DNA of 64,000 bases from Nitrospirota bacterium (GCA_963836175.1 CAWIIS010000008.1:148838-212837), one strand, 5' to 3'; counted from the stretch's first letter, positions 3,467-43,952 are shown. Translations and numbers: made by a program. Notes: a model not told the origin generated them from the letters alone.

Positions 3467-3507
3467 CGAAAGCAAGTTGCACTTGACAAGGGGGCTATAG
3501 GATGTCC
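3467..3507 (+). repeat. Copy A of a 41-42 nt direct repeat (CGAAAGCAAGTTGCACTTGACAAGGGGGCTATAGGATGTCC)
   Basis: Aligned by eye with 6247..6288, a few mismatches or indels. It sits at the junction between the IS110 tail and the truncated IS3 orfB. Confidence 0.7.
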
Positions 3508-3518
3508 CCAAAGTTCGT

Positions 3519-4050: not shown

Positions 4051-4172
4051 GGACTTTCCTCCGTTCGTGATGGTTTATCACAAATCGGCTAAAAGTCCAA
4101 TTCACGCTGAGCCAAAACAAACGAAGCTAAAGACTGCCGATCATTCTAACAGTTCAAAAGAGAGTTATTTAA

Positions 4173-4931: not shown

Positions 4932-5067
4932 CCACAACCCTGACGCAAGAACGAAATGCATTCTGAGGTAAGACTCTAACCACGTCGAGCGAGTCGCGAA
5001 AACCACGCTCCTCACGGCGGCGTTAAGCGAGCAAAGAGGCCAAGTAAATTAATAAAAGGAGATTACG

Positions 5068-5910: not shown

Positions 5911-6246
5911 CTGTTAGTGATTGATAGCTAAAGGCAAGACACTTGGCGAAGACACTTGATACCTGACGTGCATTATTCGAAGGACACATTTTGGGGACAG
6001 GTCTTGAAATATAAGAAAATGATTTTCCAAGACCTGACCCCAGAGGAGTGCGATACGAGGTGTAGATAAGTAGTAACACCAAAATAAAAGACCTGACACT
6101 ATGGTCCTCTATGGTCCTCTGCCCTGGAGCAATAACTGACATCATCCCTTTTGCATGGAGGGGCGGGGAAACTGTTTTCTCCTTGACAACTGTCAACCAT
6201 ATCAGGGTCACGTCTTGACCCCAGAGGTGTGACCCCAGAGGTGTTC

Positions 6247-6288
6247 CGAAAAGCACTTTGCGCTTGACAGGGGGCTTATAGGATGTCC
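6247..6288 (+). repeat. Copy B of the 41-42 nt direct repeat (CGAAAAGCACTTTGCGCTTGACAGGGGGCTTATAGGATGTCC)
   Basis: Matches 3467..3507. It lies in a repeat-dense intergenic region that also has GACCCCAGAGGTGT x2 at about 6219-6246, CTATGGTCCT x2 at about 6100-6120, and a GGTCTTG...CAAGACC hairpin at about 5999-6040. Confidence 0.7.
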
Positions 6289-6358
6289 TTAGAATATTAC
6301 TCACCTGCAGAAGGCGAAATGGTATCACGAACGATAAATTCCGAATGGGAGGTGTGCT

Positions 6359-9300: not shown

Positions 9301-9641
9301 GGACCGAGGTAGTTAAGACCAGGAATCGGGACCTCGTCACCGGTAGCGGGACCCTGAAGGTGGTCGCCGACAGCGATCTTGTTGAGGTAAATGCCGACAG
9401 TCTCTGGGTGCTTGATCCGCAGATCGACGTGAGCCGCGAAGTCTTCATCAACGGGCTGCGGTATGAAATCATGAAAGTGGAGACGGATACGCAGTTCCAA
9501 ATCGATTGCCCCTTTGAATTGGATTCCAATGATAACGCAAATTACCTGATCGGCAGCGTTCGATTCGGCGCGCCGTGGCGGGTAAAACTCCCGACGTCAC
9601 TAGTCGTGATAGCATCCGAGGCGGACAAGCTCAAAGTCTGA
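6359..9641 (+). CDS. Large (~1090 aa) protein of unknown function, one frame break near 7500-7515
   Basis: ORF pieces 6359..7660 (frame 2) and 7461..9641 (frame 3) overlap. Sensible sequence switches from ...EYKIVLLAAQMPGIQLG to AVAPGLTLEEASEPEGES.... A 27-aa segment is duplicated (LVELSELPNMAIERLRKWAENSFSDCS / LVKLTELPEMALNRLRKWAESCFSGSS). Central block: LGFADLIVARERVVEYVPGEIAYIENVLPGE ... YRWVDKIHEIELRQYGKRLMIETILPDP. No Walker A or other catalytic motif seen. Confidence 0.6.
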
Positions 9642-9662
9642 TCTGCCAGAAGGAAAAGAACG

Positions 9663-11264: not shown

Positions 11265-11453
11265 AAGTCTGTCGGGGAACAAAATCTAGAACTATTGGGG
11301 AATATTGGGGTCAGACTTTAGAATTGACATTCTGTCTCTTCTCGGAGAGCTACGAAAATCTATAGAGGACACTCATAGGTCTTGCGGCTTGACAAATTGT
11401 ATTTTGTGGAGTTTAAAGGTCACGGACGAATCAAAAAAATGCATTAGCGATGC

Positions 11454-11486
11454 AAGGACCGCCGCCATGTCCCTTGAATTCTGGCT
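11454..11486 (+). repeat. Left copy of 33-bp direct repeat flanking the toxin-antitoxin pair
   Basis: AAGGACCGCCGCCATGTCCCTTGAATTCTGGCT. 30/33 identical to 12242..12274. Confidence 0.85.
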
Positions 11487-11576
11487 CATCTATACGGCGG
11501 GGTTCAGGGTCCAGTGCATGGCGGACGTATGCCCATGATGAACTCGTAAGCCGCGTTAAGGCCGGCCTCGCAACTT

Positions 11577-11882
11577 TTACACGATGTCTTCGAGATGACG
11601 TGATCCATGAAGAACACAGTGTATTTCGACGAGGGGACCCCGTACCTTATAGAAAACGAGATAGGCTTCAATGACGAGCACACGATAGCCGGAGGCCTGA
11701 AGTTTATCGTGTTTCGGGATGCGGCCGGGAAAAGGGTGCGTTGCAAGACGGGCGATTCGTTTGTCAAATTTATCCGTAAAGGAAGCGGCCCGTGCGGGAC
11801 TGTCTGCCGCGATCCAGTCCGAGATGGAGAGAAGATCGTCAACGGCAATGGGAAGATAGCGGATAACGTATTTATCCGGCAT
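11577..11882 (-). CDS. ParE/RelE-superfamily type II toxin
   Basis: 101 aa, overlaps the upstream antitoxin gene by 11 nt. Typical ParE-like layout (YLPIAVDDLLSISDWIA...RFTDKFDKRIARLATHPFPGR...YRVLVIEAYLVFYKV). Confidence 0.8.
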   Translation of the reverse strand: MPDKYVIRYLPIAVDDLLSISDWIAADSPARAASFTDKFDKRIARLATHPFPGRIPKHDKLQASGYRVLVIEAYLVFYKVRGPLVEIHCVLHGSRHLEDIV

Positions 11883-12141
11883 GGCTGCGCTGCCGAAGTT
11901 TCTGCATCACCTGCGCATGGGTAATGCCCTTTTCTCCGGACGCGGCCTGCGACTGGGCCACGGCAAGCTTTTCGAAAAGGTCTAACCTGGCGTTCAGCTT
12001 TTCAAAGTGTTCAATGCTCATGACAACCAGGTCACCCTCTCCATTGGTGGTGAGGTAGACCGGTTCATCCTGGTCATGGCAGATCGATGCAATCTCGCGT
12101 GTTTTGTTACGAAGGCTTGATATGGGTTTAATGATCGGCAT
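11872..12141 (-). CDS. Phd/YefM-family antitoxin
   Basis: 89 aa. MPIIKPISSLRNKTREIASICHDQDEPVYLTTNGEGDLVVMSIEHFEKL is a classical Phd/YefM N-terminus. Sits upstream of and overlaps the toxin. Confidence 0.85.
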   Translation of the reverse strand: MPIIKPISSLRNKTREIASICHDQDEPVYLTTNGEGDLVVMSIEHFEKLNARLDLFEKLAVAQSQAASGEKGITHAQVMQKLRQRSHAG

Positions 12142-12241
12142 GATTATCTCCTTGCTTGGTTTTTATGCTATCACCATATAATGATAAAATCAAGAGTAAA
12201 TATTGAGTAAATCTGGAACAGCAGAACATCGCTCACCAGGA

Positions 12242-12274
12242 AAGGACCGCAGTCATGTCCCTTGAATTCTGGCT
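12242..12274 (+). repeat. Right copy of 33-bp direct repeat flanking the toxin-antitoxin pair
   Basis: AAGGACCGCAGTCATGTCCCTTGAATTCTGGCT. Confidence 0.85.
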
Positions 12275-12327
12275 GACGTTGAACAGCTTGGGGCGTTGTT
12301 TCCCCGGAGCGTTGTAAGGAGCGAAAC

Positions 12328-13200
12328 ATGCGAAGCATCGCAGTGGCTGTGTTCCTGATATTTTTTCTGACGCCGTCTTTGTCGCAGGCCGCATTCTTTA
12401 CGTGGACCGACAGCTCCGGGAGGGAATGGTATGTCGATGAAATAGAAAAGGTGCCGCCGGAATATCGCGGCCAGGCGAAAAATCTGTCGCAGACCAACGG
12501 CGAGGTGAACGTCGGGAATACCGTCCGAAAAGACGTACGACCCGGCGTTCCTTCTGTCCCGCACGCGGACAGCTCCGGAAGGGGAGAAAGCTTTTGGAGG
12601 GGCCAGGCCGATGAGCTGCGCAGACAGATCCGGCTGGAGGAAGACAGCATCGCTTTCTTCAAAGAGAAACGGGCGGATTGCGAAGAGTCGCAAAAGAACA
12701 TCGTCGGCCGCAGAAGAGACTGCTCCAGGTTGTACGGAGAAAACCAAAAGCGCTCGGAATGGCGTATCCAGCAGCTCAGGACCAAACTGGACGTCGATCT
12801 ACCGGAGGACGTCAGAAAGGCCGGAGCTTACCCCGGCTGGCTGCGGAAACAGGAACCGACGGCCGGGCCCGCCACCCGGACCGCGGCGGGGAGCATCACG
12901 ACAGGCCCGCATCTCGACAACTTCGGGAGAGGGGAGCGTTGGTGGAGGGACCAGGCCGACGACCTGCGCAGAAAAATCCGTGTGGAGCAGGACAATCTGG
13001 CTTACTACAACGAACGGGAAAACGCATGCGTGGAAGAGCAAAAGAGCTCTGTCGGCTGCAGAAAGAATTGCGCGCTGATGTTCCAGTCATTGAAGCAATA
13101 TGTCGAGCGCAAGATCAAGCAGTTCAGGACGCGCCTTGAAGTCGAACTGCCGGAAGAAGCGAGGAAGGCGAATGCTTACTCCGGCTGGGTGCGGGAATGA
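12328..13200 (+). CDS. Secreted protein with internal ~95-aa duplication (DUF4124-like N-terminus)
   Basis: Signal peptide MRSIAVAVFLIFFLTPSLSQA. FFTWTDSSGREWYVD start. Two repeats: SGRGESFWRGQADELRRQIRLEEDSIAFF...AGAYPGWLR and FGRGERWWRDQADDLRRKIRVEQDNLAYY...ANAYSGWVRE. Confidence 0.65.
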   Translation: MRSIAVAVFLIFFLTPSLSQAAFFTWTDSSGREWYVDEIEKVPPEYRGQAKNLSQTNGEVNVGNTVRKDVRPGVPSVPHADSSGRGESFWRGQADELRRQIRLEEDSIAFFKEKRADCEESQKNIVGRRRDCSRLYGENQKRSEWRIQQLRTKLDVDLPEDVRKAGAYPGWLRKQEPTAGPATRTAAGSITTGPHLDNFGRGERWWRDQADDLRRKIRVEQDNLAYYNERENACVEEQKSSVGCRKNCALMFQSLKQYVERKIKQFRTRLEVELPEEARKANAYSGWVRE

Positions 13201-13266
13201 CCATGTTCCCATTCAAATATCGCAGGGTCCGGTAAGATGAGATCGGCCTCGACAAAAGGAGATGAT

Positions 13267-14129
13267 ATGCAAAAAATGATATTGATGGTTCTGCTGCTCG
13301 CCACGACGGTTTCGCCTGCTTTCGCCAGCGGCGGTGATTGTCCCGACCTTCCGGCGAATCAGCAGGAGCTGGCAGCTTTCCAGTCAGCCTACAGTGCGGC
13401 AAAGGCGGCAGTGCCTCCGGCACCAGGGACTGGGTCATGAAGGACGACACTGCGGCGGGCCTCGGGACGACCGTGCCGAAATGTCCGAAAAGCTCCAACG
13501 ACACGCCCATCTTCTATTGGCTCAGGTTCACGTATGCATACAGCACCGAAGCCTCGGACCGTGCGGACCAGAATGCGGTCAGCGACGCCATGAAGGGGAC
13601 CCCGGAGCAGCAGGCGAAACTGGCGGAACTGGACCGGAAGATCGACGCTTTGGAAGATGCAAAAAAGGAAGCGCGCAAAAACAACGACTCGGCCGCGAAA
13701 AACCGGATCAGGGAGGAAGTCAGCGCCGCGAAGGCGGAAAGAAACAAGATCAAAGATGTGATCACCAAAGCCTATGTGGAGCGGGCCATGTCAGGGCAAC
13801 TGTCCCAGGACATGAACAAGACCAAACCTGACCGCGAGGATGCGGAGTTGATCATCAAGGTCAATGAAGACCATGCCTGGATCCCGGTCCGTGACCAGCC
13901 GGTGTCGATTGCCGGCGCTTCGCAGGCGTATTGGTGCAAGGGGGACAACAACGGAGGCCGCCTCGTGATCCTGCTCGGCGTTTGGGATACAAACTTCAAG
14001 TCGGACCTTGCCAGGACTTCGATTGTTACCAAGGCGCAGAATATGATCATCGAGATCAACGCCGATCGGCAGATGGCCGAGACCCTGGCGCGGCAAATAA
14101 AGCTCGACCTGTTGAAAAAGCAGCTCTAG
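13267..14129 (+). CDS. Secreted coiled-coil protein, unknown function (frame break near 13410-13430)
   Basis: AGGAG RBS plus MQKMILMVLLLATTVSPAFA signal in ORF 13237..13440. The body continues in ORF 13338..14129. Confidence 0.5.
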
Positions 14130-14165
14130 CTCCGCCGGTGGGCCCGTTTTTGATAGAGGAGCGTT

Positions 14166-14821
14166 ATGTTGAAAAAATTGGAGCAGAAACTTCAAAGCAT
14201 GGCCGCTGAAATCAAGAAATACGATCCTTCAGGTTTTGGAGACCCGATTGCCATGCAGACGGAGTGGACGTCCTCACTGGGCGGACCATCCGCTGATAAA
14301 CTGGTCAAAGTCTCTTCCGCGAGACTGGAATTCCGGGCATCCCTCGCCGGCAAGCTGGTTTTTCTTTTTTTTACCTTGACCGGCTTGGGAATCGTGGTCG
14401 GCTTCTCTCTCTACAAGCTTTCGCACGGGGGGCTGTCCTTCGATAACGACACGATCGTGCCTCTCTTGATCGGCCTTGCTTTTACGCTCGCGGGAAGCCT
14501 TATGCTGTATTCCATCACGGCCCCCGTCGTTTTTGACAAGCGCAACGGGTTCTTCTGGAAGGGGCGAAAGGCCCCGGATGAGGTCAGTGACAGGAAGACG
14601 ATTACGCATTGCGCGAAGCTTGAAGATATCCACGCCTTGCAGCTCATCTCCTATGTGTGCGCGGCCCGAAAACGCGCTCGCACTACCGATATGAATTGAA
14701 CCTTGTCCTGAAAGACGCCAGGCGCATCTACCTCGTCCTTGATGACAAGAAGGACAAGGTCAGGGAAGACGCGCGTACGCTTTCTCAATTTTTGGACAAA
14801 CCTGTATGGGATGCCATATGA
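14166..14821 (+). CDS. Two-TM membrane protein, unknown function (frame break near 14655-14665)
   Basis: ORF 14166..14699 has two hydrophobic helices. The third frame continues as VRGPKTRSHYRYELNLVLKDARRIYLVLDDKKDKVREDARTLSQFLDKPVWDAI to a stop at 14821. Confidence 0.5.
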
Positions 14822-15155
14822 ACGTATGTAAATAGTTTTGGATCTTCAGGCTTTCATGTGGGCGGAACAAGCGCCTATATGATTTATTAAGCAGTATTTG
14901 CGCCATTCTTCGCGTTTTCTGTCACCTTTCTTGCTTGCCCAAGAAAGGTAACCGAAAGAAGGGCACCCGGCGGAAATCTTTAACGGCATGCTCGGTCGTC
15001 CTTCGGTACATTTCAGAAACTCGCCCTTCGGGCTCAGACAGTCTGAAATGTTTAACCCTACGGACTCGGTTGCATGCCTAGATTTTCGCATGGGATTACC
15101 CACACAAAACCCGGATCCATATTTTTTACATTCTCGTTCTGATAAAGGAGAAAAA

Positions 15156-15838
15156 ATGAGAGCAGGTTGCTTTTCCGTGTTCAGAAGAATCATCGTTTCT
15201 CTGGTTTTCGCAGTACTGGCATGCGGTTTGATTTCTTTTGGCGTTTCCGCTGTCATCGCAGCAGAGAATCCCGCGAGCTCCGAGTTCAAGGACCCTTACA
15301 ACGGCGGCATAAAGCTTCCGAACGGAGGCGGAGAACCAGGCGGTGCATATATGGCATTTATCAAAGCCTTGTACAGCAAGGATCATATGCGAATCTGTAA
15401 ATTGATGGCCGAGCCCGCTGACGTGCCCAATGTCTTCAGCAAAAGCAAGCCCTGGACAGCACCATCGCGATGTTCACCCAGCCCCAAAGCCATAAGGTTC
15501 TCGGCGGGTTCATGAAAGGAGAAGAGGCAACGCTCAATGTCGAGTACAAGCATAAGGGGGCGCCTGAAAATACCGGGTTTGTTGTAATGAAAAAGGTCAA
15601 AAACAGATGGGTCATGTCGTCTTCCGGAGGCTCGGGGTCCTCGAACATCAGCGCAGAGGCAAGCGCTACTACGGACCTGGCCAGCGGCTCAACAACGGCG
15701 AGTGCCAGTGCCGGGCAATCGCCCGAAGCGGAATATACAGGTCCTGCGTATGGCAAATGGGAGTTCAAAGGACAGGACGATAAGAAAGTTATCTGGACAG
15801 GAACTCTTATGGTCAGAGAAGATGAGGTGAAAGTGTGA
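15156..15838 (+). CDS. Secreted hypothetical protein (frame break near 15440-15480)
   Basis: AAGGAG RBS. The MRAGCFSVFRRIIVSLVFAVLACGLISFGVSAVIAA signal/anchor is in ORF 14988..15515. Continues in 15470..15838. Confidence 0.45.
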
Positions 15839-16474
15839 TGCTGGAGATGGCTAACGAAAATGATGGGTCGAAAGGGCGCGGAGCACCCTGTAAGTGGAAT
15901 CCGGCTAAACGGGAAGTTTCGTTTGGCGGTCCCAAGGGTTCAAAGGAATTCTGTCAACTGACGGCAAAAGAATAACGCAGGGCACGTGGATTGAGGGGGA
16001 CGAGGACTATTATACCAAAAAAGTAACTATACTGGGAACCGGGACCTGGTCGGCTGTCTTTACAGGGAATGTCAGTGCAGCGGCAAGCGGACAGGCTGAT
16101 CCCGGATCTGCGTCCGCTCCGAATCCGCCGGGGCCGCCAATGCCGGCGCGGACCCCGAGTTCGCCGTCATTCAGATATCACCAAACATAGAGGAATACAC
16201 CGGCAAGTGCCCGGTCAGTATCACCTATACTGCGGACATCACGTTCAAGATGCCCCTGCCCGATAAATTTTCCTACCGCTGGGAGCGCAGCGATGGAAAA
16301 AAGACCAGGGATAGGGTCGTAAAACCGCCGCGCAACGGTCACATGTCCATCAGGGAAAACTGGAGAGGCGGGAAGCCGGGAGAGAAACACGATGTCTCGA
16401 TGAGGTTCGTTGCCGAGTCGGGCGGCGCGCAGATGGTACTGGATCCGCCGGGCGCCAAGGTGAAATGTAAATAA
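15838..16474 (+). CDS. Hypothetical protein, at least 2 frame breaks
   Basis: ATG overlaps the previous stop (TGATG). Three frame pieces read through to ...FKMPLPDKFSYRWERSDGKKTRDRVVKPP...GAKVKCK. Confidence 0.35.
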
Positions 16475-20835: not shown

Positions 20836-20945
20836 TCTTAAAATAAAAACGACATGGTTGAGAACCACCACCCCAACCCCTCCTTGTCAAGGAGGGGCTA
20901 TGCAATTCCTCCCCTTGATAAGGGGAGGTGAGGTGGGGTGATTCG
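20836..20945. repeat. Dispersed REP/MITE-like element (AAAATAAAAACGACATG head plus GC-rich hairpins)
   Basis: Hairpins CCCTCCTTGTCAAGGAGGGG and CCTCCCCTTGATAAGGGGAGG. A related copy is at 32581..32700 and a fragment at about 39063-39085. Confidence 0.6.
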
Positions 20946-20985: not shown

Positions 20986-21579
20986 ATGTCCATTCGCATG
21001 CAGGTCTTTTCTGATTACATCTGACCCTTCTGCTACATCGGCGAGGGCATCGTCGAAAAGCTGAAACAGGAATTCGACCTCGAGGTCGAATGGCGGGGCA
21101 TGGAGCTCCATCCCGAGACGCCTTCGGAAGGGACCCTTATGACCGCGAGGTTCCGGGAAGAGGACATCAAGCGCATGATGGGGCACCTTCGTCTCATGGG
21201 TACGCCCTTCGGGATCGCTTTTGTGGACCGCCCTCTCCTTTCCAACTCCCGTCCGGCCCTCCTGGCAGCGGAATTCGCCAGGGAACAGGGCAAATTTCAG
21301 ACATTTCACGAAGCAGTGTTCGCTGCCTATTTTTCTCATGGCATGGATATCGGCGATCTCGATGTCCTCAGGCAGATCGCACGCGATATCGGGATGGATG
21401 CGGACGAGCTCGGAGACGCTGTTAAAAGCGGGAAGTACGCGCCGACGCTCGAAAAGGCGAAAGAAGAAGCCGCACGTCTGGGCGTGACCGGCGTGCCCAC
21501 GTTCTTCATCAACGACAAAAGGTCCATTGTCGGCGCGCAGTCCCTTGACGTATTCCGGAAGACCCTTCGTTCTGTGTGA
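20986..21579 (+). CDS. DsbA/FrnE-like thiol:disulfide oxidoreductase with in-frame UGA in the redox motif (UPFC); selenoprotein candidate
   Basis: ATG 20986 is in the same frame as ORF 21100..21579. It reads MSIRMQVFSDYI-TGA(21022..21024)-PFCYIG, so the UGA sits where the first Cys of CxxC is expected. The DsbA-like body follows (GVTGVPTFFINDKRSIVGAQS). Confidence 0.7.
21038..21056 (+). promoter_or_regulatory. Candidate SECIS hairpin
   Basis: UCGGCGA-GGGCA-UCGUCGA (7 bp including one G-U, 5-nt G-rich loop), starting 13 nt after the UGA. Confidence 0.45.
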
Positions 21580-21944: not shown

Positions 21945-23847
21945 ATGGAAAAGTCTATTGACAGTGCTACACTCTCTGCGTTAAAGACCGCGGAGACGTC
22001 GGGGATCAAGACCGTCTGGGACCGGTACGAAGCGCAGAAGCCGCAGTGCGGGTTCGGCGAGACCGGCCTGTGCTGCAGGAACTGCATGCAGGGGCCCTGC
22101 AGGATCGATCCCTTCGGCGAGGGGCCCCAGACCGGCGTCTGCGGAGCGAACGCGGATGTGATGGTCGCGCGCTGGGTTGCCGGGCCGTGGCGGCAGGCAC
22201 GGCATCGCACGGCGGCCACGCCAAGCACCTGGCCCACACGCTGCTGAAATCGGCCAACGGCGAGGCCGCCGATTATCCGATCAAGGACGAGGCCAAGCTC
22301 AGGGCGGTCGCCGCCGGATCGGCGTGACCGGCGGCGACGTGAAGACGCTCGCGCGGAACGTGGCCCTGAAGGCGCTGGAGGAATTCTCCGAGAAGGAGTC
22401 CCCGCTCACCTGGGCGGCCTCCACCGTGACCAAGGGCCGCGTGGACACCTTCGTGAAGCTCGGCGTGGTGCCCACGGGCATCGACAGCGTGGTGGCGGAG
22501 TCCATGCACCGGACGACCTACGGCGTCGACGCCGATCCGGTGAACCTGCTGCTCGGCGCGATCAAATGCGCCCTGGCCGACTATGCGGGGTGCCATCTGG
22601 CCACGGACCTTGCGGACATCCTCTTCGGCACGCCGCAGCCCGCGGTGACGAGCGCGAACCTCGGGGTGCTCAAGAAGAACGCCGTGAACATCGCCGTGCA
22701 CGGCCACAACCCGCTCCTCTCCGACATGATCGCGCAGGTGGCGGACGATAAAGGAGCTGAACGACAAGGCCAGGGCTGCCGGCGCTTCGGAAGGGATCAA
22801 CGTCGTCGGCGTCTGCTGCACCGGGAACGAAGTGATGATGCGCCACAAGATCCCGCTGGCAACAAGCTCCGTGTCCCAGGAGACCGCGATCCTGACCGGC
22901 GCCCTGGACGCCATGGTCGTCGACTACCAGTGCATCATGCCCTCCCTCGCGAACGTGGCCGAGTGCTATCACACCAAGCTCATCACCACCATGTCCATCG
23001 CAAAGATACCCGAAGGCCATGCATATCGAGTTCCAGGAGGCGAACGCCCGGGAATCGGCAGCGAAGATCATCCTCGCCGCGATCGAAGCGTTCAAGAAGC
23101 GCGACCCGAAGAAGATCAACATCCCCGACGATCTCAAGCCCGGCGATCGTCGGGTTCTCCACCGAGACGATCGTGGGCGCCCTCGCGAAGGTGAACAAGG
23201 AGGACCCGCTCAAGCCGCTCATCGACAACATCGTTTCCGGCAACATCTACGGCGTCTGCCTGTTTGCCGGGTGCAATACCGTCAAGGTCACGCAGGACGC
23301 GAACTATGTCGCGATGATCAAGGAACTGGCGAAGAACAACGTGCTGATCCTGGCAACGGGCTGCGCCTCCGGCGCCTTTGCGCGCCACGGGTTCATGACG
23401 CCCGAGGCGACGAACAAGTACGCCGGGCCGGGGCTCAAGGCCGTGCTCACGGCGGTGGGACAGGCCGCGGGCCTGGGCGGGCCGCTGCCGCTGGTGCTCC
23501 ATATGGGCTCCTGCGTGGACAATTCGCGGGCCGCGGACGTGGCGGTTGCGGTGGCGAACAAGCTCGGCGTGGACCTGAACAAGCTCCCGGTCGTTGCTTC
23601 GGCGCCCGAGGCGGTGACGGAAAAGGCCGTGGCCATCGGCACGTGGGCCGTGGCAGCGGGGCTGCCGACCCATCTCGGCGTGGTGCCGCCCGTGCTCGGC
23701 AGCAAGGTGGTGACCCAGGTGCTCACGTCGACGGCAAAGGACCTCTTCGGCGGCTAGTTCATCGTGGAGCCCGATCCGGTCAAAGCGTCAGGACAGCTGC
23801 TTGCAGCCATGGCCGAGCGCCGCAAAGGCCTCGGGCTCTCGGCATAG
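21945..23847 (+). CDS. cooS: Anaerobic Ni-Fe carbon monoxide dehydrogenase catalytic subunit, about 6 frame breaks plus an in-frame TAG at 23755
   Basis: N-terminus QCGFGETGLCCRNCMQGPCRI...GVCGANAD. Pieces in ORFs 21945.., 22046.., 22177.., 22832.., 23019.. together give a continuous CooS-like sequence. The C-terminal ...DLFGG-TAG-FIVEPDPVKA...RRKGLGL still looks CooS-like. Confidence 0.85.
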
Positions 23848-23856
23848 GAGGACGAC

Positions 23857-24354
23857 ATGGACCAGATATTCGTGAAACCGGAAAAGTGCATGGGCTGCAG
23901 AAGCTGCGAGATCGCCTGCGCGGTCCAGCATTCGAAAGACAAGAACCTGTTTTCCGCCGTGCTCCAGTCGCCGCCGCCGATGAAGCGGCTCTTCGTGGAG
24001 GCAGCCGACGGCATCAGGATGCCGGTCCTCTGCAGGCACTGCGAGGATGCGCCGTGCCTGAACGCCTGCATCAGCGGCTGTCTCTACCGGGACGACAAGA
24101 AGTTCGTGCGCAGGAGGAAAGAGCGCTGCATCGGGTGCTGGTCCTGCGTCATGGCCTGCCCCTTCGGCGTGATTTCCCGGGACAGGGAGAAGCACATCGC
24201 GGTAAAATGCGACCGTTGCCATAAGCTCGATGTCCCGGCCTGCGTGAACGCCTGCCCTACGCGGGCGCTCGTCCTGGCCGAGGTGGACCGGATGTCGGAG
24301 GAAAAGCGGCAGAAGGTCGTGTTCGCCGAAACAGCAGGCGCGGGCCGGCCATAA
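23857..24354 (+). CDS. cooF: CooF-like 4Fe-4S ferredoxin
   Basis: Intact, with multiple CxxCxxCxxxCP clusters (CMGCRSCEIAC, CRHCEDAPC, CIGCWSCVMACP, CDRC...CVNACP). Sits directly after cooS. Confidence 0.8.
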   Translation: MDQIFVKPEKCMGCRSCEIACAVQHSKDKNLFSAVLQSPPPMKRLFVEAADGIRMPVLCRHCEDAPCLNACISGCLYRDDKKFVRRRKERCIGCWSCVMACPFGVISRDREKHIAVKCDRCHKLDVPACVNACPTRALVLAEVDRMSEEKRQKVVFAETAGAGRP

Positions 24355-32885: not shown

Positions 32886-35584
32886 ATGCAGAGTAAAAAA
32901 ACATCGGGGAACCGGGGGCTTATCATTGCCGCTATCGTGGGGTTCATTCTCCTGGCGACATCGCGCCAGATCATCACCTTTATCGCCGACTGGCTGTTCT
33001 TCCAGGAGGTCGGCTACGCCGCGGTCTTCAGCAAGACCTTTCAGGCGAAGCTGCTGACCGGCCTGCTGTTCGGCGCGGTCGCTTTTGTCGTCTTCCTCAT
33101 CAACCTCACGGTGGCCAGGCGGAAAACTTTTCCGCTCCGCGGCGTGAACCCGCTCTGGCAGAGCATGCCGCAGTTGCAGCACCTCGACCTGGACCGGATG
33201 ATGGGATGGCTCGCTTTTGGCGTGTCCGGCTTTATGTTCCTGCTCTCGTTCACCGTGGGGATGCAGTACTGGGAACAGGCGCTCCTGTTCCTGAACAGCG
33301 TGCCTGCAGGCCTTGCCGACCCGCTCTTTAACAAGGACATCTCGTTCTATCTGTTCTCCTTTCCCTTTGTAAACATGCTGAACACCATGGTGCGCAGCAT
33401 GCTGGTGTTTGCCGCCCTTCTTGTTGTCGTGCTTTATATTTCTCGCGGCGGCGTCGTGTGGCTGGGCAAATTCCTTTCCGTGGACCCGGCGGTGAAACGC
33501 CATCTGGCAATCCTGATATCGCTGTTCCTGCTCAGCCTGTCCTTCAGCTTCGCGCTCGACCGCTACGGCCTGTTGACCACGGAGCACGGCGTGCTCTACG
33601 GCGCGTCCTACACCGATGTGCATGTGCGGCTTTTGATGCTGACCGTTATGGCCGTGCTGAGCCTTGCCACGGCGATCCTGCTGCCGTTCGTTGCGGCGAA
33701 GCGGTCTTTTATCGTGCCGCTCATCGCGCTGGCCGTGCTCAGCGGCGTCTATTTCCTGGGGCTCAAGGTCTATCCCCAGACGATCCAGAGCTTCCAGGTC
33801 TCGCCGAACGAGAGCGTGCTCGAGCTGCCCTACATCGCGGACCATATCAAATTCACCCGCTACGGCTACGGCCTGGAGCATATGGAACTGCAGCCCTTTG
33901 CCGCGGACAAGCAGCTGGCCTTCACGGACATCAGGAAAAACCTGTCCACGATCCAGAACATCAGGCTCTGGGACGAGGAGCCGCTGCTCAAGACCTACAG
34001 CCAGCTGCAGCAGATCAGGACCTACTATCACTTCAGCGACGTGGACAACGACCGCTATACCGTGAACGGCAAATATCTGCAGACAATGCTGTCCCCGCGG
34101 GAGCTGTCCTACGCGGACCTGCCGAACAAATCGTGGATCAATGAGCGGCTCGTGTTCACCCACGGTTTCGGCCTGTCCATGGGGCCCGTGAGCGGCATCA
34201 CCCGGGAAGGCCTGCCGGAGTTCTTTATCAAGGACATCCCGCCGGTCTCGAGCGCAGGGCCGAAGGTGACCCGTCCCGAGATCTACTATGGCGAAAGCCC
34301 CAATGACTACGTGATCGTGAACACGAAGACCAGGGAGTTCAGCTATCCCACGACGAAAGAGAATGTCTATACCGTGTACTCGGGAAGCGGGGGAGTGCGG
34401 CTTACCTCCTTCCTGAAGCGGCTTCTGTATGCCTCCTACTTCGGGAACCTCAAGATCTTCCTGTCCAGCGATGTGACCGACGACAGCCGCATCATTTATA
34501 ACCGCACCGTCCTGGACCGCGTGGACAGGATCGCGCCGTTCCTGTCGTACGATCCCGATCCCTATATGGTCGTGGGAGAGGACGGCAGGTTGTCCTGGAT
34601 CATCGACGCCTACACGCAGAGCAGCAGCCTTCCCTATTCAAAACCGCTTGCCGGCGGCGCCAACTATATCCGCAACTCGGTAAAGGTGGTCGTCGACGCC
34701 TATGACGGCAGCGTCGTGTTCTATGTCGGTCGACCAGCAGGACGTCCTGGCCCGGGCCTATGCGGCGGTGTTTCCAGACGTGTTCAAGCCCCTGTCGGAA
34801 ATGCCCGCCGATCTCCGGAAGCACATCCGCTATCCGCGCGCCCTGCTCCAGATCCAGGCGCGGATGTTCACGACCTTTCATATGACCGATCCGGCGGTGT
34901 TCTACAATAAAGAAGACCTCTGGGAGATCCCGTCGTACCGCGAAAAGACCATGGAGCCCTATTATCTCATCACCAGGCTTCCGGGCGACAAGGCGGAGGA
35001 GTTCATCCTGCTTCTGCCCTTTACGCCGTCAAAGCGTGACAACCTGGCTGCCTGGATGGCTGCGCGCTGCGACGGCGAGAACTACGGCAAGGTCACGGTC
35101 TTTACCTTCCCCAGGGACCGGCTGGTCTTCGGGCCGCGCCAGATCGACGCGCGCATCGACCAGGACTCCTACATCTCGCAGCAGCTCACGCTCTGGGGAC
35201 AGAGCGGTTCCGATGTGATCCGCGGCAGCCTTCTGATCATTCCCATGGAGGACTCGCTCATCTATGTGCAGCCGCTCTACCTGGTGGCCACGGACAAGGG
35301 CGGGTTGCCGGAGCTCCGCAGGGTCATTGTCGCCTACGGGAACGACGTGGTCATGGAGGAAACGCTGGACGCCTCGATCCAGCGCCTGTTCAGCGGCGCG
35401 CTGCCGAGCATGCGGATGACCGAGGGCGGCCCGGCCGCAATCAGTCATCGATCCAAAGGAACTGGGCTCCCGGGCGCTGGAGCAGCTGCGCAAGGCGCGG
35501 GAAGCGCTCCGGAAAGAGGACTGGGCAGGGTACGGGAAGCACTTGAAGGAGCTGGAAGAGACGCTTCGGGGGATGGCGAAGTGA
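32886..35584 (+). CDS. UPF0182-family large membrane protein, at least 2 frame breaks (about 34725 and about 35440)
   Basis: Multi-TM N-terminus. IRLWDEEPLLKTYSQLQQIRTYYHFSDVDNDRY signature. The C-terminal pieces restore ...IDPKELGSRALEQLRKAREALRKEDWAGYGKHLKELEETLRGMAK. Confidence 0.7.
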
Positions 35585-36011
35585 TAAACTAGAAAAGCGT
35601 TTAGCCGCAGATTTCGCAGATGGACGCAGATTTTTACCTGCCGTCGAAAAAGTCCCACTTGGCCGTCATTGCGAGGAGCTTTAGCGACGAAGCAATCTCG
35701 AAGTGGTTTTTTCGTAAATCGAGATTGCTTCGCTTTGCTCGCAAAGACTGCAAAAGACTTTTTTAGTTATCTATTTAAAAAAATAATCTGCGAAAATCTG
35801 CGTTTATCTGCGGCCAAAGTTTTTAGTACCTGAGGTTTCCACGCACCCGAACGACAAGACCGACCGTCGCTTCCTCCAGCTCGAACACGAATATCCGGAC
35901 CAATTCACTCCTTATAGCTCAGAATACCCCCATTTAACGCGGTGATTTAAAGTATCAGTTTATTTTGCCCTGATTTTACGCCTCTTTAACAGTCATTTAT
36001 TACTAAAGTAT

Positions 36012-36312: not shown

Positions 36313-38674
36313 ATGAAGAGCGCGGCATCTGCTTCAGCATCCGGCACGGGTCTGAATCTGTCCGAGAACTGCCTTAAGGTTCTTGAGAAACGGTATCTTA
36401 AGCGGAACGAGGACGGGACCGTGGTCGAAACAGCCGTGGACATGTTCACGCGCGTGGCCAGGACCATTGCCGATGCCGACCGGGCCTACGGCAAGTCCGA
36501 TGCCGAGATCGAGCGGACCGCGGCCGAGTTCTACCGGCTCATGACCTCGCTGGAGTTCCTGCCGAACAGCCCGACGCTCATGAACGCGGGCCGCGAACTG
36601 GGCCAGCTCTCGGCCTGTTTTGTGCTGCCCGTGGGCGACTCCATGGAGGAGATCTTCGACTCCGTGAAGCAGGCGGCGCTGATCCACAAGTCCGGCGGCG
36701 GCACGGGCTTCTCCTTTTCGCGCATCCGCCCCAAGAACGACGTGGTCAAGTCCACCAAGGGCGTCTCCTCCGGCCCCATCTCGTTCATGACCGTGTTCGA
36801 CGCGGCCACGGAGACCGTGAAGCAGGGCGGCACGCGCCGCGGCGCCAACATGGGCATCCTGTCGGTGGACCATCCGGATATCCTCGATTTCGTCACCTGC
36901 AAGCAGCAGAACGACCGGCTGAATAACTTCAATATCTCCGTTGCCATGACCGACACCTTCATGGACGCCGTGGAGAAGGACGACGGACTACGACCTGGTC
37001 TCGCCCCGGAACCGCGACGTGGTGCGCACCCTGAGCGCCCGCCAGGTCTTCGACACGGTCGTGAACATGGCCTGGAAGAACGGCGACCCCGGCATCATCT
37101 TTATGGACCGCATCAACCAGTACAATCCCACGCCGCATATCGGCAAGATGGAGTCCACCAACCCCTGCGGCGAGCAGCCGCTGCTTCCCTACGAGTCCTG
37201 CAACCTGGCGTCGATCAACCTGGCGAAGATGCTGGCGCCGCACGGCAAGGCCGTGGATTTCGACAAACTGCGCCACACCGTGCAGCAGGGCGTCCATTTC
37301 CTCGACAACGTCATCGACGTGAACCGCTATCCCATCGACAAGATCGACAAGAATGACCCGCTCCAACCGCAAGATCGGCCTGGGCGTCATGGGCTTCGCC
37401 GACATGCTGCTCGAGATGGGCATTCCCTACAATTCCGAAGAGGCGGTGAAGCTCGGCGAGCAGGTCATGCAGTTCGTCACCGACGAAGGCCGGAAAATGA
37501 GCGAAGAGCTTGCACGGAGACCGCGGCCCCTTCCCGAACTTCAAGGGGAGCATCTACGACAAGCCCGGCATGGCGCCGGTGCGGAACGCCACGGTCACGA
37601 CCATCGCGCCCACCGGCACGCTGTCCATCATCGCCGGCTGCTCCAGCGGCATCGAACCGCTCTTCGCGCTTTCCTATATCCGCAGGGTCATGGACGGCGC
37701 CGAACTGATCGAAGTGAACCCCGTCTTCGAGCGGGTCGCCAAGGCGCGCGGCTTCCATTCCGACGCCCTTATGAAGGAGATCGCCGAGCACGGCGGCTGC
37801 ACCGGCATCAAGACCGTGCCCGAGGACGTGCAGCGCGTGTTCGTCACGTCCCACGATATCACCCCCGAGTGGCATATCCGCATGCAGGCCGCGTTCCAGA
37901 AATACACGGACAACGCCGTGTCCAAGACCGTGAACTTCCCGCACAGCGCGACCCAGGACGATGTGAAAAAGGTCTACATGATGGCCTACAAGCTGGGCTG
38001 CAAGGGCGTGACCATCTACCGCGACGGTTCGCGCGACGAGCAGGTGCTCTCCACCGGCGCCACGGACAAGGCACGCAAGGCGGCAGCCGCTGCCGGCCCA
38101 TCCGGTCACGGTCGCCTCCGCCTCGCCGGAACTTGCCGAGGAGAAGAAGCCGCGACACCGGCCGGCCCTTACCCAGGGCGTTACGCAGAAGCTTCCCACG
38201 GGCTGCGGCAACCTCTATATCACGATCAACGAGGACGAAGAGGGCATTTGCGAGGTCTTCTCGACCATGGGCAAGTCCGGCGGGTGCGCCGCCAGCCAGT
38301 CCGAGGCGGTCTCCCGCATGGTATCGCTGGCCCTCCGGTCCGGCGTGTCCATCGATTCGATCATCAAGCAGGTGAAGGGCATTCGCTGTCCGTCGCCGGC
38401 CTGGGTCGAGGGCGGCTCCATCCTGTCCTGCCCCGATGCCATCGGCCGGGCCCTGGAGCGCTACACCAAGGACGCCGGCCAGCAGGCATATGCCGAAGCC
38501 CAAGGCCGCGACCCAGCAGAACGTGGGCTATGCGTCTACGGACTGCGGCGCGGGAGCAGGGACGGCAAGAACCATCTCGGCATCTGCCCGGAGTGCCCGG
38601 ACTGCGGCGGGCTTCTGGAGTTCGGCGAGGGCTGCGCTTTTTGCCGCGGCTGCGGGTTCTCCAAGTGCGGGTAG
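36313..38674 (+). CDS. nrdJ: Class II (adenosylcobalamin-dependent) ribonucleotide reductase, at least 4 frame breaks
   Basis: [69 protein letters not shown], and a C-terminal Zn ribbon CPECPDCGG...[13 protein letters not shown]. Pieces are in ORFs 36313.., 37019.., 37353.., 37510.., 38267... Confidence 0.85.
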
Positions 38675-38781
38675 CATCGTACTGCGGAATACAAGATACA
38701 TTCACAATAATGGTCCGGAGGCACTGTTGAACGATCTCTCCCGGTATCGCAGTTTGAAAAGACCATATGCATCGACACCAG

Positions 38782-41951: not shown

Positions 41952-42050
41952 TGCCGGCAAGCCGGCACAACGGCGAATGAAAACCCCTCACCCTCCCCTC
42001 GGGGGAGAGGACAAAAGGTGAGGGAGATTTACGGGAAAAGGAGTAGTGCA

Positions 42051-42461
42051 ATGAAACAGCATATACGTGCGATCATGCTCATGACAGTGGCGGCGTGTTT
42101 TTTCTGCCAGCCGCTTCCGGCCCAGGAGCAGAAGGGGCCCCAGATCGAGCTCAAGGAGGCGACCTACGATTTCGGCAAGGTTGTCGAGGGGGCCAAACTG
42201 CAGCATGTGTTCGTGGTGGGGAACACCGGAGATGCCGCGCTCGATATCCAGCAGATTCAGTCTACCTGAGGGTGCACCGCCGCGGTGATTAGTTCTAATC
42301 ACCTTGAACCGGGAGCTCTCGGACGCATTCAGGCAACGGTGGACACCGCCGGCAGGAGCGGTCGCCTGGTTAAGAAAATATCGATCTACTCGAATGACCA
42401 AAGAAATCCGGTACGGACGATCATCATGACCATGAACATCATCCCAAAACCCCTGCCGTAG
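42051..42461 (+). CDS. DUF1573-type secreted protein with in-frame UGA replacing the first Cys of the conserved CGC motif; selenoprotein candidate
   Basis: AAAGGAG RBS plus signal peptide. YDFGKVVEGAKLQHVFVVGNTGDAALDIQQIQST-TGA(42267..42269)-GCTAAV...LEPGALGRIQATVDTAGRSGRLVKKISIYSND continues in the same frame to TAG 42459..42461. Confidence 0.65.
42284..42303 (+). promoter_or_regulatory. Candidate SECIS hairpin
   Basis: Perfect 8-bp stem GGUGAUUA / UAAUCACC with loop GUUC, starting 14 nt after the UGA. Confidence 0.5.
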
Positions 42462-42813: not shown

Positions 42814-43952
42814 ATGCAGAAAAAATATCTCCTTGCCCCTGGACCGACACCAGTGCCGCCTGAGGCGCTTCTGGCCATGGCCATGCCGATCATCCATCAC
42901 CGGGCGCCTGACTTTCTGCCCGTGCTCGAATCAGCGAAAAAGGGCCTTCAGTGGCTCTATCAGACCAAGAACGACGTGCTGATCCTCTGCTCCACCGGCA
43001 CCGGCGGCATGGACGGCGCGGTGTCAAATTTCCTGAGCCCCGGCGACGACGTACTCGTGATGAACGGCGGTAAGTTCGGCGAACGCTGGACCAAGATCTG
43101 CCAGGCCTACGGCATGAAGGTGGAAGAGGTCATGGTGGAATGGGGATACGCGGTAAAGCCGGAGCAGGTCGAGGCGAGCGCTCAAGAAGAACCCGAAGAT
43201 CAAGGCCGTGTTCGTCCAGGCGAACGAGACCTCCACCGGCGTGTACCACGACATCAAGTCGATCGCCGCAGTCGTCAAGAAGACCGATGCGCTCTTTGTG
43301 GTCGATGCCATCTCGGCGCTGGTGGCCCATGACATCAAGACCGACGAGTGGGGTATTGACGTCATGATCGGCGGCTCCCAGAAGGGCGTGATGCTGCCCC
43401 CGGGGCTTGCCTTCGTATCCGTCAGCGACAAGGCCTGGAAGATGGCCGATACGGCGAAGACGCCGAAATTCTATTTCAACTTCAAGAAAGAGCGCGAGAA
43501 CCTGGCCAAGAACCAGACGCTCTTTACCTCTCCCGTGACGCTCATCATCGGCCTGAACGCCGCTATTAAAATGCTTCAGGACGAGGGTCTCGAGAACGTG
43601 TTCAAGCGCCACGAAAAGCTCGCCCAGGCGACTCGCGCAGGGGCCTTGGCGCTCGGGCCTCAAGCTCTTTCCCAAGGAAAGTCCGAGCAATGCGCTCACG
43701 GCCATCGAAGCGCCGGCTGGCGTGGACGGCCAGGCGATCTACAAGGACCTGCGCGTGAAGTACGGCATCACCGGCGCAGGCGGCCAGGACAAGCTCAAGG
43801 GCAAGATCTTCCGCATCGCGCACCTGGGCTATGCCGACACTTTTGACGTGATCACGGCGATCGCCGGCATCGAGATGGTGCTGAAGGGCCTGGGCCATCC
43901 GGTGAAGCTCGGCACGGGCGTGGGCGCGGCGCAGGAAATATTGATGAAGTAA
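42814..43952 (+). CDS. Class V aminotransferase (serine-glyoxylate / phosphoserine aminotransferase type), 2-3 frame breaks
   Basis: LLAPGPTPVP start and GGSQKGVMLPPGLAF (PLP lysine). Lies upstream of serA. Pieces are in ORFs 42814.., 43208.., 43722... Confidence 0.75.

What the first reader, a model, noticed from the sequence alone, without database searches (positions are those of the whole stretch)
42051..42461. In-frame UGA at the conserved Cys of a DUF1573 protein, with a perfect hairpin 14 nt downstream: candidate new selenoprotein
The ORF track stops at 42269, but the same frame continues for 64 more codons. That continuation matches the remainder of the DUF1573 fold (…PG..G.I.V……G…K.I.V.SND). 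The stop codon replaces the first Cys of the family's hallmark S-C-G-C-T motif, giving S-T-U-G-C-T. A perfect 8-bp stem with loop GUUC starts 14 nt after the UGA, the geometry expected for a bacterial SECIS. A second UGA/Cys/hairpin case in the same window (20986..21579) shows the organism plausibly decodes Sec. I do not recall DUF1573 being an established selenoprotein family, so this may be new. It would also imply a redox role for the CGC motif of this very common secreted domain.
Basis: partly seen in the sequence, partly recalled or inferred. Interest (0 to 1): 0.7.

Follow-up and report, generated by a model that had tools for sequence, protein, structure and literature searches.

The report
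Known DUF1573 selenoprotein, Nitrospirota member
The in-frame UGA is real and almost certainly encodes selenocysteine in a small exported DUF1573 protein, but DUF1573 proteins with a Sec-Gly-Cys motif have been a predicted selenoprotein family (OS_HP2) since 2007, so this is an unannotated new member, not a new family.

Summary
The ORF 42051..42269 ends at a TGA, and the same frame runs on for 63 sense codons to a TAG at 42459-42461. The read-through product is a signal peptide plus one complete DUF1573 domain with the motif S-T-U-G-C-T. A perfect 8-bp hairpin with loop GUUC starts 14 nt after the UGA.

Twelve distinct orthologues, from independent metagenomes and from MAGs labelled Nitrospirota, all carry the TGA. 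In all of them the frame stays open to a TAG at the same place (one codon earlier in L007). dN/dS is 0.30 downstream of the TGA and 0.24 upstream. The hairpin is identical in all twelve, and its codons show no synonymous change (0/8 against 36/49 elsewhere). Two relatives at 45-46% identity keep the GUUC loop and have compensatory changes in 3 of 8 stem pairs. About 50 more distant homologues have Cys at this position.

The hairpin meets all four criteria of the published bacterial SECIS model. A DsbA-like gene in the same window behaves the same way.

The novelty claim fails. OS_HP2 (pfam07610, UxC/UGC) was published in 2007 and 2008, appears in the 2022 and 2026 reviews, and is modelled by NCBIfam NF041425. 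The window protein scores 85.7 bits against that model's cut-off of 100, and public gene calls truncate it. The Sec machinery could not be checked. Function remains unknown.

The parts
42038..42043 (+). Ribosome-binding site AAGGAG, 7 nt before the ATG
   Evidence: Read from the sequence. The GGAAAAGGAG-like stretch is kept before the M-K-Q start in most of the 12 orthologues, whereas the longer starts chosen by gene callers are not conserved.
42051..42461 (+). Complete gene for a DUF1573 (OS_HP2-like) selenoprotein: 136 residues with Sec at residue 73, plus the TAG stop
42051..42122 (+). Predicted Sec-type signal peptide (residues 1-24: K/R n-region, hydrophobic core, P-L-P-A|Q-E)
   Evidence: Inferred from the sequence pattern and its conservation in orthologues (PLPAQE, PLWAQE, PLQAQE). 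This stretch has low pLDDT in the model. No signal-peptide predictor was available.
42267..42269 (+). In-frame UGA read as selenocysteine (residue 73), at the first Cys of the family's C-G-C-T motif
   Evidence: TGA is present in all 12 distinct orthologues and in three more distant relatives. More distant homologues have Cys here.
42284..42303 (+). SECIS-type hairpin: stem 42284-42291 / 42296-42303 (8 bp), apical loop GUUC at 42292-42295, loop starting 22 nt after the UGA
   Evidence: -9.6 kcal/mol, z = -5.0. Identical in 12 orthologues. 0/8 codons with synonymous change against 36/49 elsewhere, p = 1.2e-4. Compensatory changes in 3 of 8 pairs, loop invariant. Meets the four bSECIS criteria quoted in PMC13188914.
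42459..42461 (+). True stop codon TAG
   Evidence: A TAG ends the frame at the same position in 11 of the 12 orthologues and one codon earlier in L007.
20986..21579 (+). Second selenoprotein gene in the window: DsbA-like (form 1, UxxC) with UGA at 21022-21024 and a candidate SECIS hairpin at 21038-21056 (UCGGCGA-GGGCA-UCGUCGA). This supports Sec decoding in this organism.
   Evidence: The family is listed in PMC13188914.

Best explanation
The gene at 42051-42461 encodes a 136-residue exported protein made of a signal peptide and one DUF1573 domain, an Ig-like beta-sandwich of the PapD/ASH type. Codon 73 (UGA) is most likely recoded to selenocysteine. The hairpin at 42284-42303 lies inside the coding sequence. 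Its GUUC loop starts 22 nt after the UGA. It would act as a bacterial SECIS that recruits SelB with Sec-tRNA(Sec) to the ribosome, so that translation continues to the TAG at 42459. Sec replaces the first Cys of the family's invariant C-G-C-T motif. In the model this motif sits in the tight turn (T72-U73-G74-C75) between two strands. Shown: the UGA and the downstream frame are conserved and under purifying selection, the position pairs with Cys in homologues, and the hairpin is constrained at the RNA level. Inferred: the inserted residue is Sec, the protein is exported, and the U-G-C turn is a redox-active (selenylsulfide, CXC-type) or metal(loid)-binding site. The biochemical function is not known for any member of the family.
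For: (1) The TGA and the open downstream frame are present in 12 distinct orthologous sequences from independent assemblies. Four of these are MAGs labelled Nitrospirota. This excludes a consensus error or a private truncation. (2) dN/dS is 0.30 downstream of the UGA against 0.24 upstream. The read-through protein matches PF07610 end to end. (3) About 50 homologues from Aminicenantes, Phycisphaeraceae, Bacteroidota and Chlorobiota have Cys at this position, and it is one of seven invariant columns. (4) The hairpin is identical in all 12 orthologues. Its 8 codons have no synonymous change against 36/49 elsewhere (Fisher p = 1.2e-4). In the 45-46%-identical relatives L068 and L070, the loop GUUC is kept and 3 of 8 stem pairs change on both sides (G-C>C-G, A-U>G-C, U-A>C-G). 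96.4% of cells are paired against 19-46% when the partner is slid. (5) All four bSECIS criteria are met: loop 3-9 nt, stem 4-16 bp, G then G/U at the start of the loop, 16-37 nt from the UGA, MFE <= -7.5. (6) TGA is an ordinary stop for 9 of 25 Pfam-backed ORFs in the window, so the code is not reassigned. (7) A second gene in the window, DsbA-like, has a UGA at the first Cys of CPFC. The UGA is conserved in another MAG (L067) and in a 51%-identical relative (L071), a Cys form exists (P0026), and there is a model-conforming hairpin with one compensatory pair. (8) The family is a published predicted selenoprotein family, and NF041425 is the top NCBIfam hit.
Against: No selA, selB, selD or tRNA-Sec was found in the 64-kb window or in any fetched locus, and the rest of the genome could not be searched. 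No Rfam family matches the hairpin. No DUF1573 selenoprotein has been verified experimentally; the 2026 review lists the family among computational predictions. The covariation rests on only two divergent sequences, and the tested structure was derived from the window sequence. The protein scores 85.7 bits on NF041425, below the cut-off of 100. The fold is not thioredoxin-like and there is no redox partner in the neighbourhood, so the proposed chemistry is conjecture.
Confidence: 0.85

Rival explanations
1. The UGA is recoded through the same SECIS/SelB route, but the residue inserted is cysteine, delivered by a selC*-type tRNA(Cys). The product would then be an ordinary C-G-C DUF1573 protein.
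For: Mukai et al. (PMC5389517) report selC* tRNA(Cys) genes in anaerobic bacteria, including Nitrospirae and Thermodesulfovibrio. Nothing in the DNA distinguishes Sec from Cys insertion.
Against: In that paper all selC*-carrying genomes also had the complete Sec apparatus. No selC* or selC gene could be looked for here. Keeping a UGA plus SECIS across at least 12 lineages, when TGC or TGT is one mutation away, argues that Sec itself is selected.
Confidence: 0.07
2. The UGA is a genuine stop. The gene makes a 72-residue half-domain, and the downstream sequence is a decaying remnant or is conserved for another reason.
For: All public gene callers end the protein there (P0001-P0008, 74-85 aa). 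The Sec machinery has not been demonstrated.
Against: The downstream frame stays open for 62-63 codons in all 12 orthologues, ending at a TAG at the same place (one codon earlier in L007). Its dN/dS is 0.30 with excess change at third positions. It supplies the missing half of the DUF1573 domain. The full-length model folds with pLDDT 86. Half a beta-sandwich would not fold.
Confidence: 0.03
3. The TGA is an assembly or consensus error (TGC or TGT > TGA) in an error-prone assembly.
For: The window is clearly indel-prone. UPF0182, the ribonucleotide reductase and the class V aminotransferase are split by frameshifts that are absent from syntenic contigs.
Against: The same TGA occurs in 12 distinct sequences from ENA, JGI, Logan and NCBI assemblies, and in three distant relatives. 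The window's errors look like indels, not substitutions.
Confidence: 0.01
4. The conserved hairpin has a role unrelated to Sec, such as a pause, attenuator or processing site. The UGA is passed by SECIS-independent near-cognate read-through.
For: There is no Rfam match. The bona fide OS_HP2 relative L069 has a different hairpin whose loop lacks G in its first two positions.
Against: Position, loop sequence and geometry fit the bSECIS model exactly. The UGA sits precisely on a Cys column, which is the signature of Sec rather than of leaky termination. Bacterial SECIS elements are known to differ between genes (PMC13188914).
Confidence: 0.03

Closest known systems
OS_HP2 / 'DUF1573 domain-containing protein' selenoprotein family (Zhang & Gladyshev 2007, PMC1976440; PMC2398784; Table 1 of PMC9312934 and PMC13188914; NCBIfam NF041425)
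   Same: Same Pfam domain (PF07610). Same Sec position, the first Cys of C-G-C (U-G-C / UxC). The in-frame hairpin starts 14 nt after the UGA in both the window gene and the bona fide member L069. NF041425 is the best NCBIfam hit and aligns end to end (2-96 of 98).
   Different: The window protein scores 85.7 bits, below the curated cut-off of 100. L069 scores 102.7. The window protein has a single domain and comes from uncultured Nitrospirota. L069 has an extra C-terminal region and sits next to an ArsR/SmtB regulator and an ArsE/MTH895 thioredoxin-like gene. The SECIS sequences differ (GUUC loop on an 8-bp stem against UCGAC on a 5-bp stem). The original members came from deltaproteobacterial worm symbionts.
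E. coli fdhF-type bacterial SECIS and the bSECISearch consensus model
   Same: A hairpin inside the coding sequence just 3' of the UGA. A small apical loop beginning G-U. The loop lies 16-37 nt from the UGA. Stability meets the <= -7.5 kcal/mol criterion.
   Different: From my own knowledge of fdhF: that minimal element has a bulged U in the stem, a GGUC loop and an 11-nt spacer. Here the 8-bp stem is perfect, the loop is GUUC and the spacer is 14 nt. Binding by a Nitrospirota SelB is untested.
DsbA-like selenoprotein form 1 (PF01323, UxxC), present in the same window at 20986-21579
   Same: A Sec-for-Cys replacement at the first Cys of a short Cys pair. The family is a computational prediction. 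The UGA is conserved in relatives, with a model-conforming hairpin.
   Different: It has a thioredoxin fold with a classical UxxC redox motif. The DUF1573 protein is an Ig-like sandwich with UxC, a spacing not used by thioredoxin-fold enzymes.
PapD-like / ASH / HYDIN-VesB Ig-like domains (PDB 2qsv, 2e6j, 3qbt, 4lk4, 6bqm)
   Same: Same beta-sandwich fold by Foldseek (E from 2e-7 to 1e-4, TM 0.55-0.67). PF22544 also hits the sequence.
   Different: These are binding or scaffold domains, and nothing in the match descriptions points to a catalytic site. 2qsv is of unknown function. I did not check whether any of them carries the C-G-C turn.

Membership tests
Bacterial selenoprotein gene (UGA-Sec with in-frame SECIS) | In-frame UGA aligned with a conserved Cys in homologues (Sec/Cys pair) | tested here: met
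   U73 aligns with the first Cys of C-G-C-T in about 50 homologous loci. The column is invariant in an 18-sequence alignment.
Bacterial selenoprotein gene (UGA-Sec with in-frame SECIS) | The reading frame downstream of the UGA is conserved and under purifying selection | tested here: met
   In 12 distinct orthologues the frame stays open to a TAG at the same place (one codon earlier in L007). dN/dS is 0.30 downstream against 0.24 upstream.
Bacterial selenoprotein gene (UGA-Sec with in-frame SECIS) | bSECIS model: loop 3-9 nt, upper stem 4-16 bp, G in the first two loop positions, 16-37 nt between UGA and loop, MFE <= -7.5 kcal/mol | tested here: met
   Loop GUUC (4 nt), stem 8 bp, G-U at the start of the loop, 22 nt spacing, -9.6 kcal/mol. 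The hairpin shows RNA-level constraint and covariation.
Bacterial selenoprotein gene (UGA-Sec with in-frame SECIS) | selA, selB, selC (tRNA-Sec) and selD present in the same genome | not testable with these tools
   None was found in the 64-kb window or in the fetched loci. Indirect support comes from a second conserved UGA/Cys gene in the window and from literature reports of Sec machinery in Nitrospirae.
Bacterial selenoprotein gene (UGA-Sec with in-frame SECIS) | Selenium demonstrated in the protein | not testable with these tools
   This needs 75Se labelling or mass spectrometry.
DUF1573 / OS_HP2 selenoprotein family (literature definition) | PF07610 domain above Pfam's gathering score | tested here: met
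   81.2 bits against 26.1, profile positions 1-94 of 98.
DUF1573 / OS_HP2 selenoprotein family (literature definition) | Sec in a U-x-C / U-G-C motif | tested here: met
   S-T-U-G-C-T. The motif is as listed in PMC2398784, PMC9312934 and PMC13188914.
NCBIfam NF041425 OS_HP2 family (seleno)protein (curated subfamily) | Score at or above the curated cut-off of 100 bits | tested here: not met
   85.7 bits for the window protein, 82.6 for L004, 78.5 for L068. L069 reaches 102.7. A Cys-form Aminicenantes homologue scores 88.0. So this is a sister subgroup, not a member of NF041425 by NCBI's rule.
Thioredoxin-fold thiol-disulfide oxidoreductases | Thioredoxin fold with a CxxC/UxxC motif | tested here: not met
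   The model is an all-beta sandwich. The Foldseek neighbours are PapD-like/ASH/Ig-like domains. The motif spacing is UxC.

The most novel reading that the evidence does not exclude
The Nitrospirota clade, together with relatives L068 and L070, may be a distinct Sec-bearing DUF1573 subgroup that falls outside NCBI's OS_HP2 model. In it, a U-G-C turn on an exported, non-thioredoxin Ig-like domain would act as a minimal CXC-type selenylsulfide redox centre or a metal(loid)/chalcogen-binding site in the periplasm. That would assign a chemistry to the very widespread C-G-C motif of DUF1573. The in-frame SECIS also appears to shape the protein itself: the loop A-GUUC fixes the codons AGU UCN, giving Ser-Ser, in every Sec form with this hairpin type.
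Probability: 0.2. Interest if true: 0.5.

Novelty: new member of a known kind. Interest (0 to 1): 0.3.

Why it matters
For annotation: public gene calls truncate this gene at the UGA in every metagenome and MAG examined (74-85 aa fragments). NCBI's OS_HP2 model misses it by about 14 bits. The clade is therefore a systematic false negative that a lowered cut-off or a Sec/Cys-pair search would recover.

For biology: Sec at the first Cys of the invariant C-G-C-T turn is the only functional clue for DUF1573. This domain has thousands of members (at least 7,530 hits at E <= 1e-8) and no known function. The clue points to that Cys as a reactive nucleophile. The same conclusion has been available in the selenoproteome literature since 2007-2008, so the finding extends existing knowledge rather than changing it.

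Tried and rejected
- Rfam, at gathering thresholds and at E <= 10 on 42200-42400, gave no SECIS or other RNA family.
- A sequence search of the PDB gave no hit at E <= 0.01.
- AlphaFold on the single sequence gave pLDDT 34, which is unusable. It was redone with a 40-row alignment.
- Pfam scans of about 40 window ORFs for sel genes found none. ARAGORN found no tRNA-Sec in the window or in 13 loci.
- A brute-force scan of the window for other read-through TGAs near Cys was too noisy to use in this GC-rich sequence.
- Handing the read-through protein to the representative search failed, because of the stop codon and because of the exact-match rule. The 72-residue N-terminal part was used instead.
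- Looking up the window's own DsbA-like protein to identify the source record returned 'not on record'.
- Neighbour-gene clustering around 47 Cys-form and Sec-form loci, to find a redox partner, showed only Bacteroidota housekeeping synteny (YajC, CoaE, a MeaB-like GTPase).
- A literature search for DUF1573 function found four papers, none functional.
- I suspected that the CTCCCCT...GGGGAG hairpins upstream of both Sec genes were a Sec-related signal. I rejected this because they are absent from all orthologues.
- Lipoprotein idea: the window's V-A-A-C resembles a lipobox, but the Cys is not conserved in orthologues.

Full report
**1. The observation**

The ORF that starts at the ATG at 42051 ends at a TGA at 42267-42269. 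The same frame continues for 63 sense codons to a TAG at 42459-42461. An AAGGAG ribosome-binding site lies 7 nt upstream of the ATG.

With Cys placed at the UGA, the 136-residue product matches Pfam DUF1573 (PF07610) over residues 32-125. This covers profile positions 1-94 of 98, at 81.2 bits against a gathering score of 26.1. It also matches the HYDIN/VesB-like Ig domain PF22544. The sequence after the stop is therefore the second half of the domain.

The motif is S-T-U-G-C-T. The hairpin GGTGATTA-GTTC-TAATCACC occupies 42284-42303, 14 nt after the TGA. It folds at -9.6 kcal/mol with z = -5.0, and none of 200 shuffles folds as well.

**2. Is the UGA real, and is the downstream frame translated?**

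The protein search returned eight close relatives at 67-82% identity. All were called as fragments of 74-85 residues ending at exactly this position. I fetched their contigs and scanned genomes and metagenomes. This gave 12 distinct orthologous gene sequences: window, L001=L037, L004=L012, L007, L008, L009, L010, L011=L036, L013, L033=L034, L035 and L038. They come from ENA, JGI, Logan and NCBI assemblies.

Four are MAGs labelled Nitrospirota or Nitrospirae. Synteny is conserved: PP-loop ATPase, MshEN-domain protein, YjbQ/UPF0047, this gene, class V aminotransferase, SerA, PurA.

Every one of the 12 has TGA at the same codon, followed by G-C-[TA]-A-A-V-I-S-S-N-H-L-E-P-G. In every one the frame stays open to a TAG at the same place (one codon earlier in L007).

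By my Nei-Gojobori calculation, dN/dS is 0.24 for the 43 codons before the UGA and 0.30 for the 62 after it. It is 0.29 when the hairpin codons are left out. The downstream part is therefore translated in this frame.

This excludes both a consensus error and a private truncation. That matters because the window assembly is visibly indel-prone: UPF0182, the ribonucleotide reductase and the aminotransferase are split by frameshifts that the syntenic contig L001 lacks. TGA also serves as the ordinary stop for 9 of 25 Pfam-backed ORFs in the window, so the genetic code is not reassigned.

**3. Sec/Cys pair**

All more distant homologues recovered at the DNA level have Cys at this codon, in the motif [ST]-C-G-C-T. 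There are about 50 such loci, from Aminicenantes, Phycisphaeraceae, Bacteroidota, Chlorobiota and others, at 27-43% identity. In an 18-sequence alignment the only invariant columns are F41, G42, F54, N58, C73 (the Sec position), C75 and T76.

**4. The hairpin as a SECIS**

The 20-nt hairpin is identical in all 12 orthologues. The eight codons that cover it (A-A-V-I-S-S-N-H) show no synonymous variation. Of the other amino-acid-invariant degenerate codons, 36 of 49 vary (Fisher p = 1.2e-4). This indicates a constraint on the RNA itself.

A search of 1.84 billion representative proteins with the 72-residue N-terminal part found three more truncated relatives at 41-46% identity: P0374, P0384 and P0391. 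Their DNA (L068, L069, L070) shows TGA, then G-C-[TS], then an open frame.

In L068 and L070 the hairpin sits at the same place with the same GUUC loop. Three of its eight stem pairs differ on both sides: G-C>C-G, A-U>G-C and U-A>C-G. Of the pair cells, 96.4% are paired, against 19-46% when the 3' partners are slid by 1-3 columns. No shuffle of 500 reaches the observed covariation score.

Two caveats apply. The covariation rests on only two divergent sequences, and the structure tested was derived from the window.

The 2026 review gives the bacterial SECIS model as four criteria (PMC13188914):
- a 3-9 nt loop on a 4-16 bp stem
- G in the first two loop positions, usually followed by G or U
- 16-37 nt between the UGA and the loop
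- MFE <= -7.5 kcal/mol

The hairpin meets all four, with a 4-nt loop, an 8-bp stem, G-U at the start of the loop, 22 nt spacing and -9.6 kcal/mol. Rfam has no matching family.

A side observation: the loop A-GUUC fixes the codons AGU UCN, which is why every Sec form with this hairpin type reads Ser-Ser there.

**5. Does the organism decode Sec?**

This could not be tested directly. No selA, selB, selD or tRNA-Sec lies in the window or in any fetched locus, and the rest of the genome is out of reach.

Indirect evidence is good. The DsbA-like gene at 20986-21579 (PF01323, E = 9e-40) has a TGA at the first Cys of C-P-F-C. The orthologue on the 2.35-Mb contig of MAG MFD00905.bin.2.216, the same contig as L010, has the same TGA. 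A 63%-identical homologue has Cys there (P0026). A 51%-identical homologue whose database translation shows Trp at that position actually has TGA (L071).

A model-conforming hairpin lies at 21038-21056: UCGGCGA-GGGCA-UCGUCGA, at -9.4 kcal/mol, with the loop starting 20 nt after the UGA. It is identical in L067. In L071 it shows one compensatory G-C>A-U change with the loop unchanged.

The literature reports Sec machinery in Nitrospirae. It also reports selC* tRNA(Cys) genes there, which could insert Cys at SECIS-directed UGAs (PMC13188914 and PMC5389517). That possibility is kept as a rival.

**6. What the protein is**

The first 24 residues look like a Sec-type signal peptide ending P-L-P-A|Q-E. 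The pattern is conserved in orthologues. The window's lipobox-like V-A-A-C is not conserved.

AlphaFold2 with a 40-row alignment gives a confident beta-sandwich, with mean pLDDT 86 and above 94 over most of the domain. T72-U73-G74-C75 forms the turn between strands 64-71 and 76-80.

The nearest solved structures by Foldseek are 2qsv (a Porphyromonas gingivalis protein of unknown function), the PapD-like domains of HYDIN, the ASH domain of OCRL, and the Ig-like domains of VesB and VesC. This is not a thioredoxin fold.

The Nitrospirota gene neighbourhood offers no redox partner. Clustering the neighbours of 47 Cys-form and Sec-form loci showed only Bacteroidota housekeeping synteny.

The only contextual hint comes from L069. 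There the gene follows an ArsR/SmtB metalloregulator and an MTH895/ArsE-family thioredoxin-like gene.

My mechanistic proposal for the mature protein is a selenylsulfide-forming CXC-type site or a metal(loid)-binding site in the periplasm. This is inference only.

**7. Comparison with what is known**

- Zhang & Gladyshev described OS_HP2 in 2007 from the Olavius symbiont metagenome (PMC1976440).
- Their 2008 GOS paper lists 'OS_HP2, pfam07610, UxC', with 2 Sec forms and 354 Cys homologues (PMC2398784).
- NCBIfam has NF041425, 'OS_HP2 family (seleno)protein', which is the top hit of the window protein.

Membership in the family as the literature defines it (PF07610 plus U-G-C) is met.

Membership in NCBI's curated subfamily is not met. 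The window protein scores 85.7 bits against a cut-off of 100, the Nitrospirota orthologue L004 scores 82.6 and L068 scores 78.5. L069 reaches 102.7.

The Nitrospirota clade is thus a sister subgroup that current annotation misses. Every public gene call is a truncated, unnamed fragment.

**8. Verdict**

The selenoprotein interpretation is well supported: about 0.85 for Sec and about 0.95 for recoding of some kind. The 'new selenoprotein family' claim is not supported.

This is a new, unannotated member of a known, computationally predicted family. Interest is modest. The finding has value for annotation, and it adds a clean SECIS and covariation data set. It does not reveal a new kind of system or the function of DUF1573.

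Noticed in passing
window 32886-35592, 36313-38730, 42814-43846, 22177-24224: Several genes are split by frameshifts: UPF0182 into 2 pieces, ribonucleotide reductase into 3, class V aminotransferase into 2, and possibly the hybrid-cluster protein. The syntenic contig L001 has intact genes of 898, 786 and 378 aa. This suggests an indel-prone (long-read?) assembly rather than pseudogenes.
   Followed up: partly
window 20909-20927 and 41993-42007 (extended hairpins about 20875-20945 and 41983-42019): The palindrome CTCCCCT..GGGGAG occurs at two sites in 64 kb (3 matches, one site on both strands; 0.01 expected by chance). Both copies lie just upstream of the two selenoprotein genes. Both are insertions absent from all orthologous loci, so this looks like a small genome-specific palindromic repeat (REP/MITE-like) and not a Sec signal.
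   Followed up: partly
window 20986-21579: A DsbA-like selenoprotein (form 1, UxxC) with UGA at 21022-21024 and a candidate SECIS at 21038-21056 (loop GGGCA). Public gene calls start at a downstream Met (159 aa) or translate the TGA as Trp (P0027 and P0100; confirmed TGA for P0100 in L071:337-339).
   Followed up: yes
L069:419-2300: A bona fide OS_HP2 member (NF041425, 102.7 bits). It has a UGA, is 235 aa long and has an extra C-terminal region. It sits directly after an ArsR/SmtB metalloregulator and an MTH895/ArsE-family thioredoxin-like gene. This is a possible functional hint towards metal(loid) or thiol redox chemistry, from a single locus.
   Followed up: partly
window 1-16000: A lower-GC stretch (0.46-0.54 against about 0.58 elsewhere). 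It carries an IS110-family transposase (2121-3194), a weak HEPN match (4173-4931, just below Pfam's cut-off) and many long ORFs without Pfam hits (5068-15838). It may be a mobile or defence island.
   Followed up: no
L006:3259-3268: The JGI contig Ga0260547_10007464 has a run of 10 N right after TGA-GG in the orthologous gene. This is most likely a scaffold gap that shifts the frame, so the locus was left out of the codon analyses.
   Followed up: no
L016, L018, L019, L023, L028 (about 3349-3669 in L019): In several of the distant Cys-form loci (Bacteroidota-type MAGs and a Chlorobiota-labelled one), the Cys-form DUF1573 gene is followed by a YajC-like gene, identified from the sequence only. 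In three of these loci a CoaE-like gene follows as well. This is a conserved housekeeping neighbourhood with no obvious redox link.
   Followed up: no
one search hit list (P0249-P0265 and others): The best-scoring relatives of the N-terminal half-domain are giant proteins of 1,000-7,000 residues with 10-20 repeats of this Ig-like module. The fold is widely used as a repeat unit in very large proteins.
   Followed up: no
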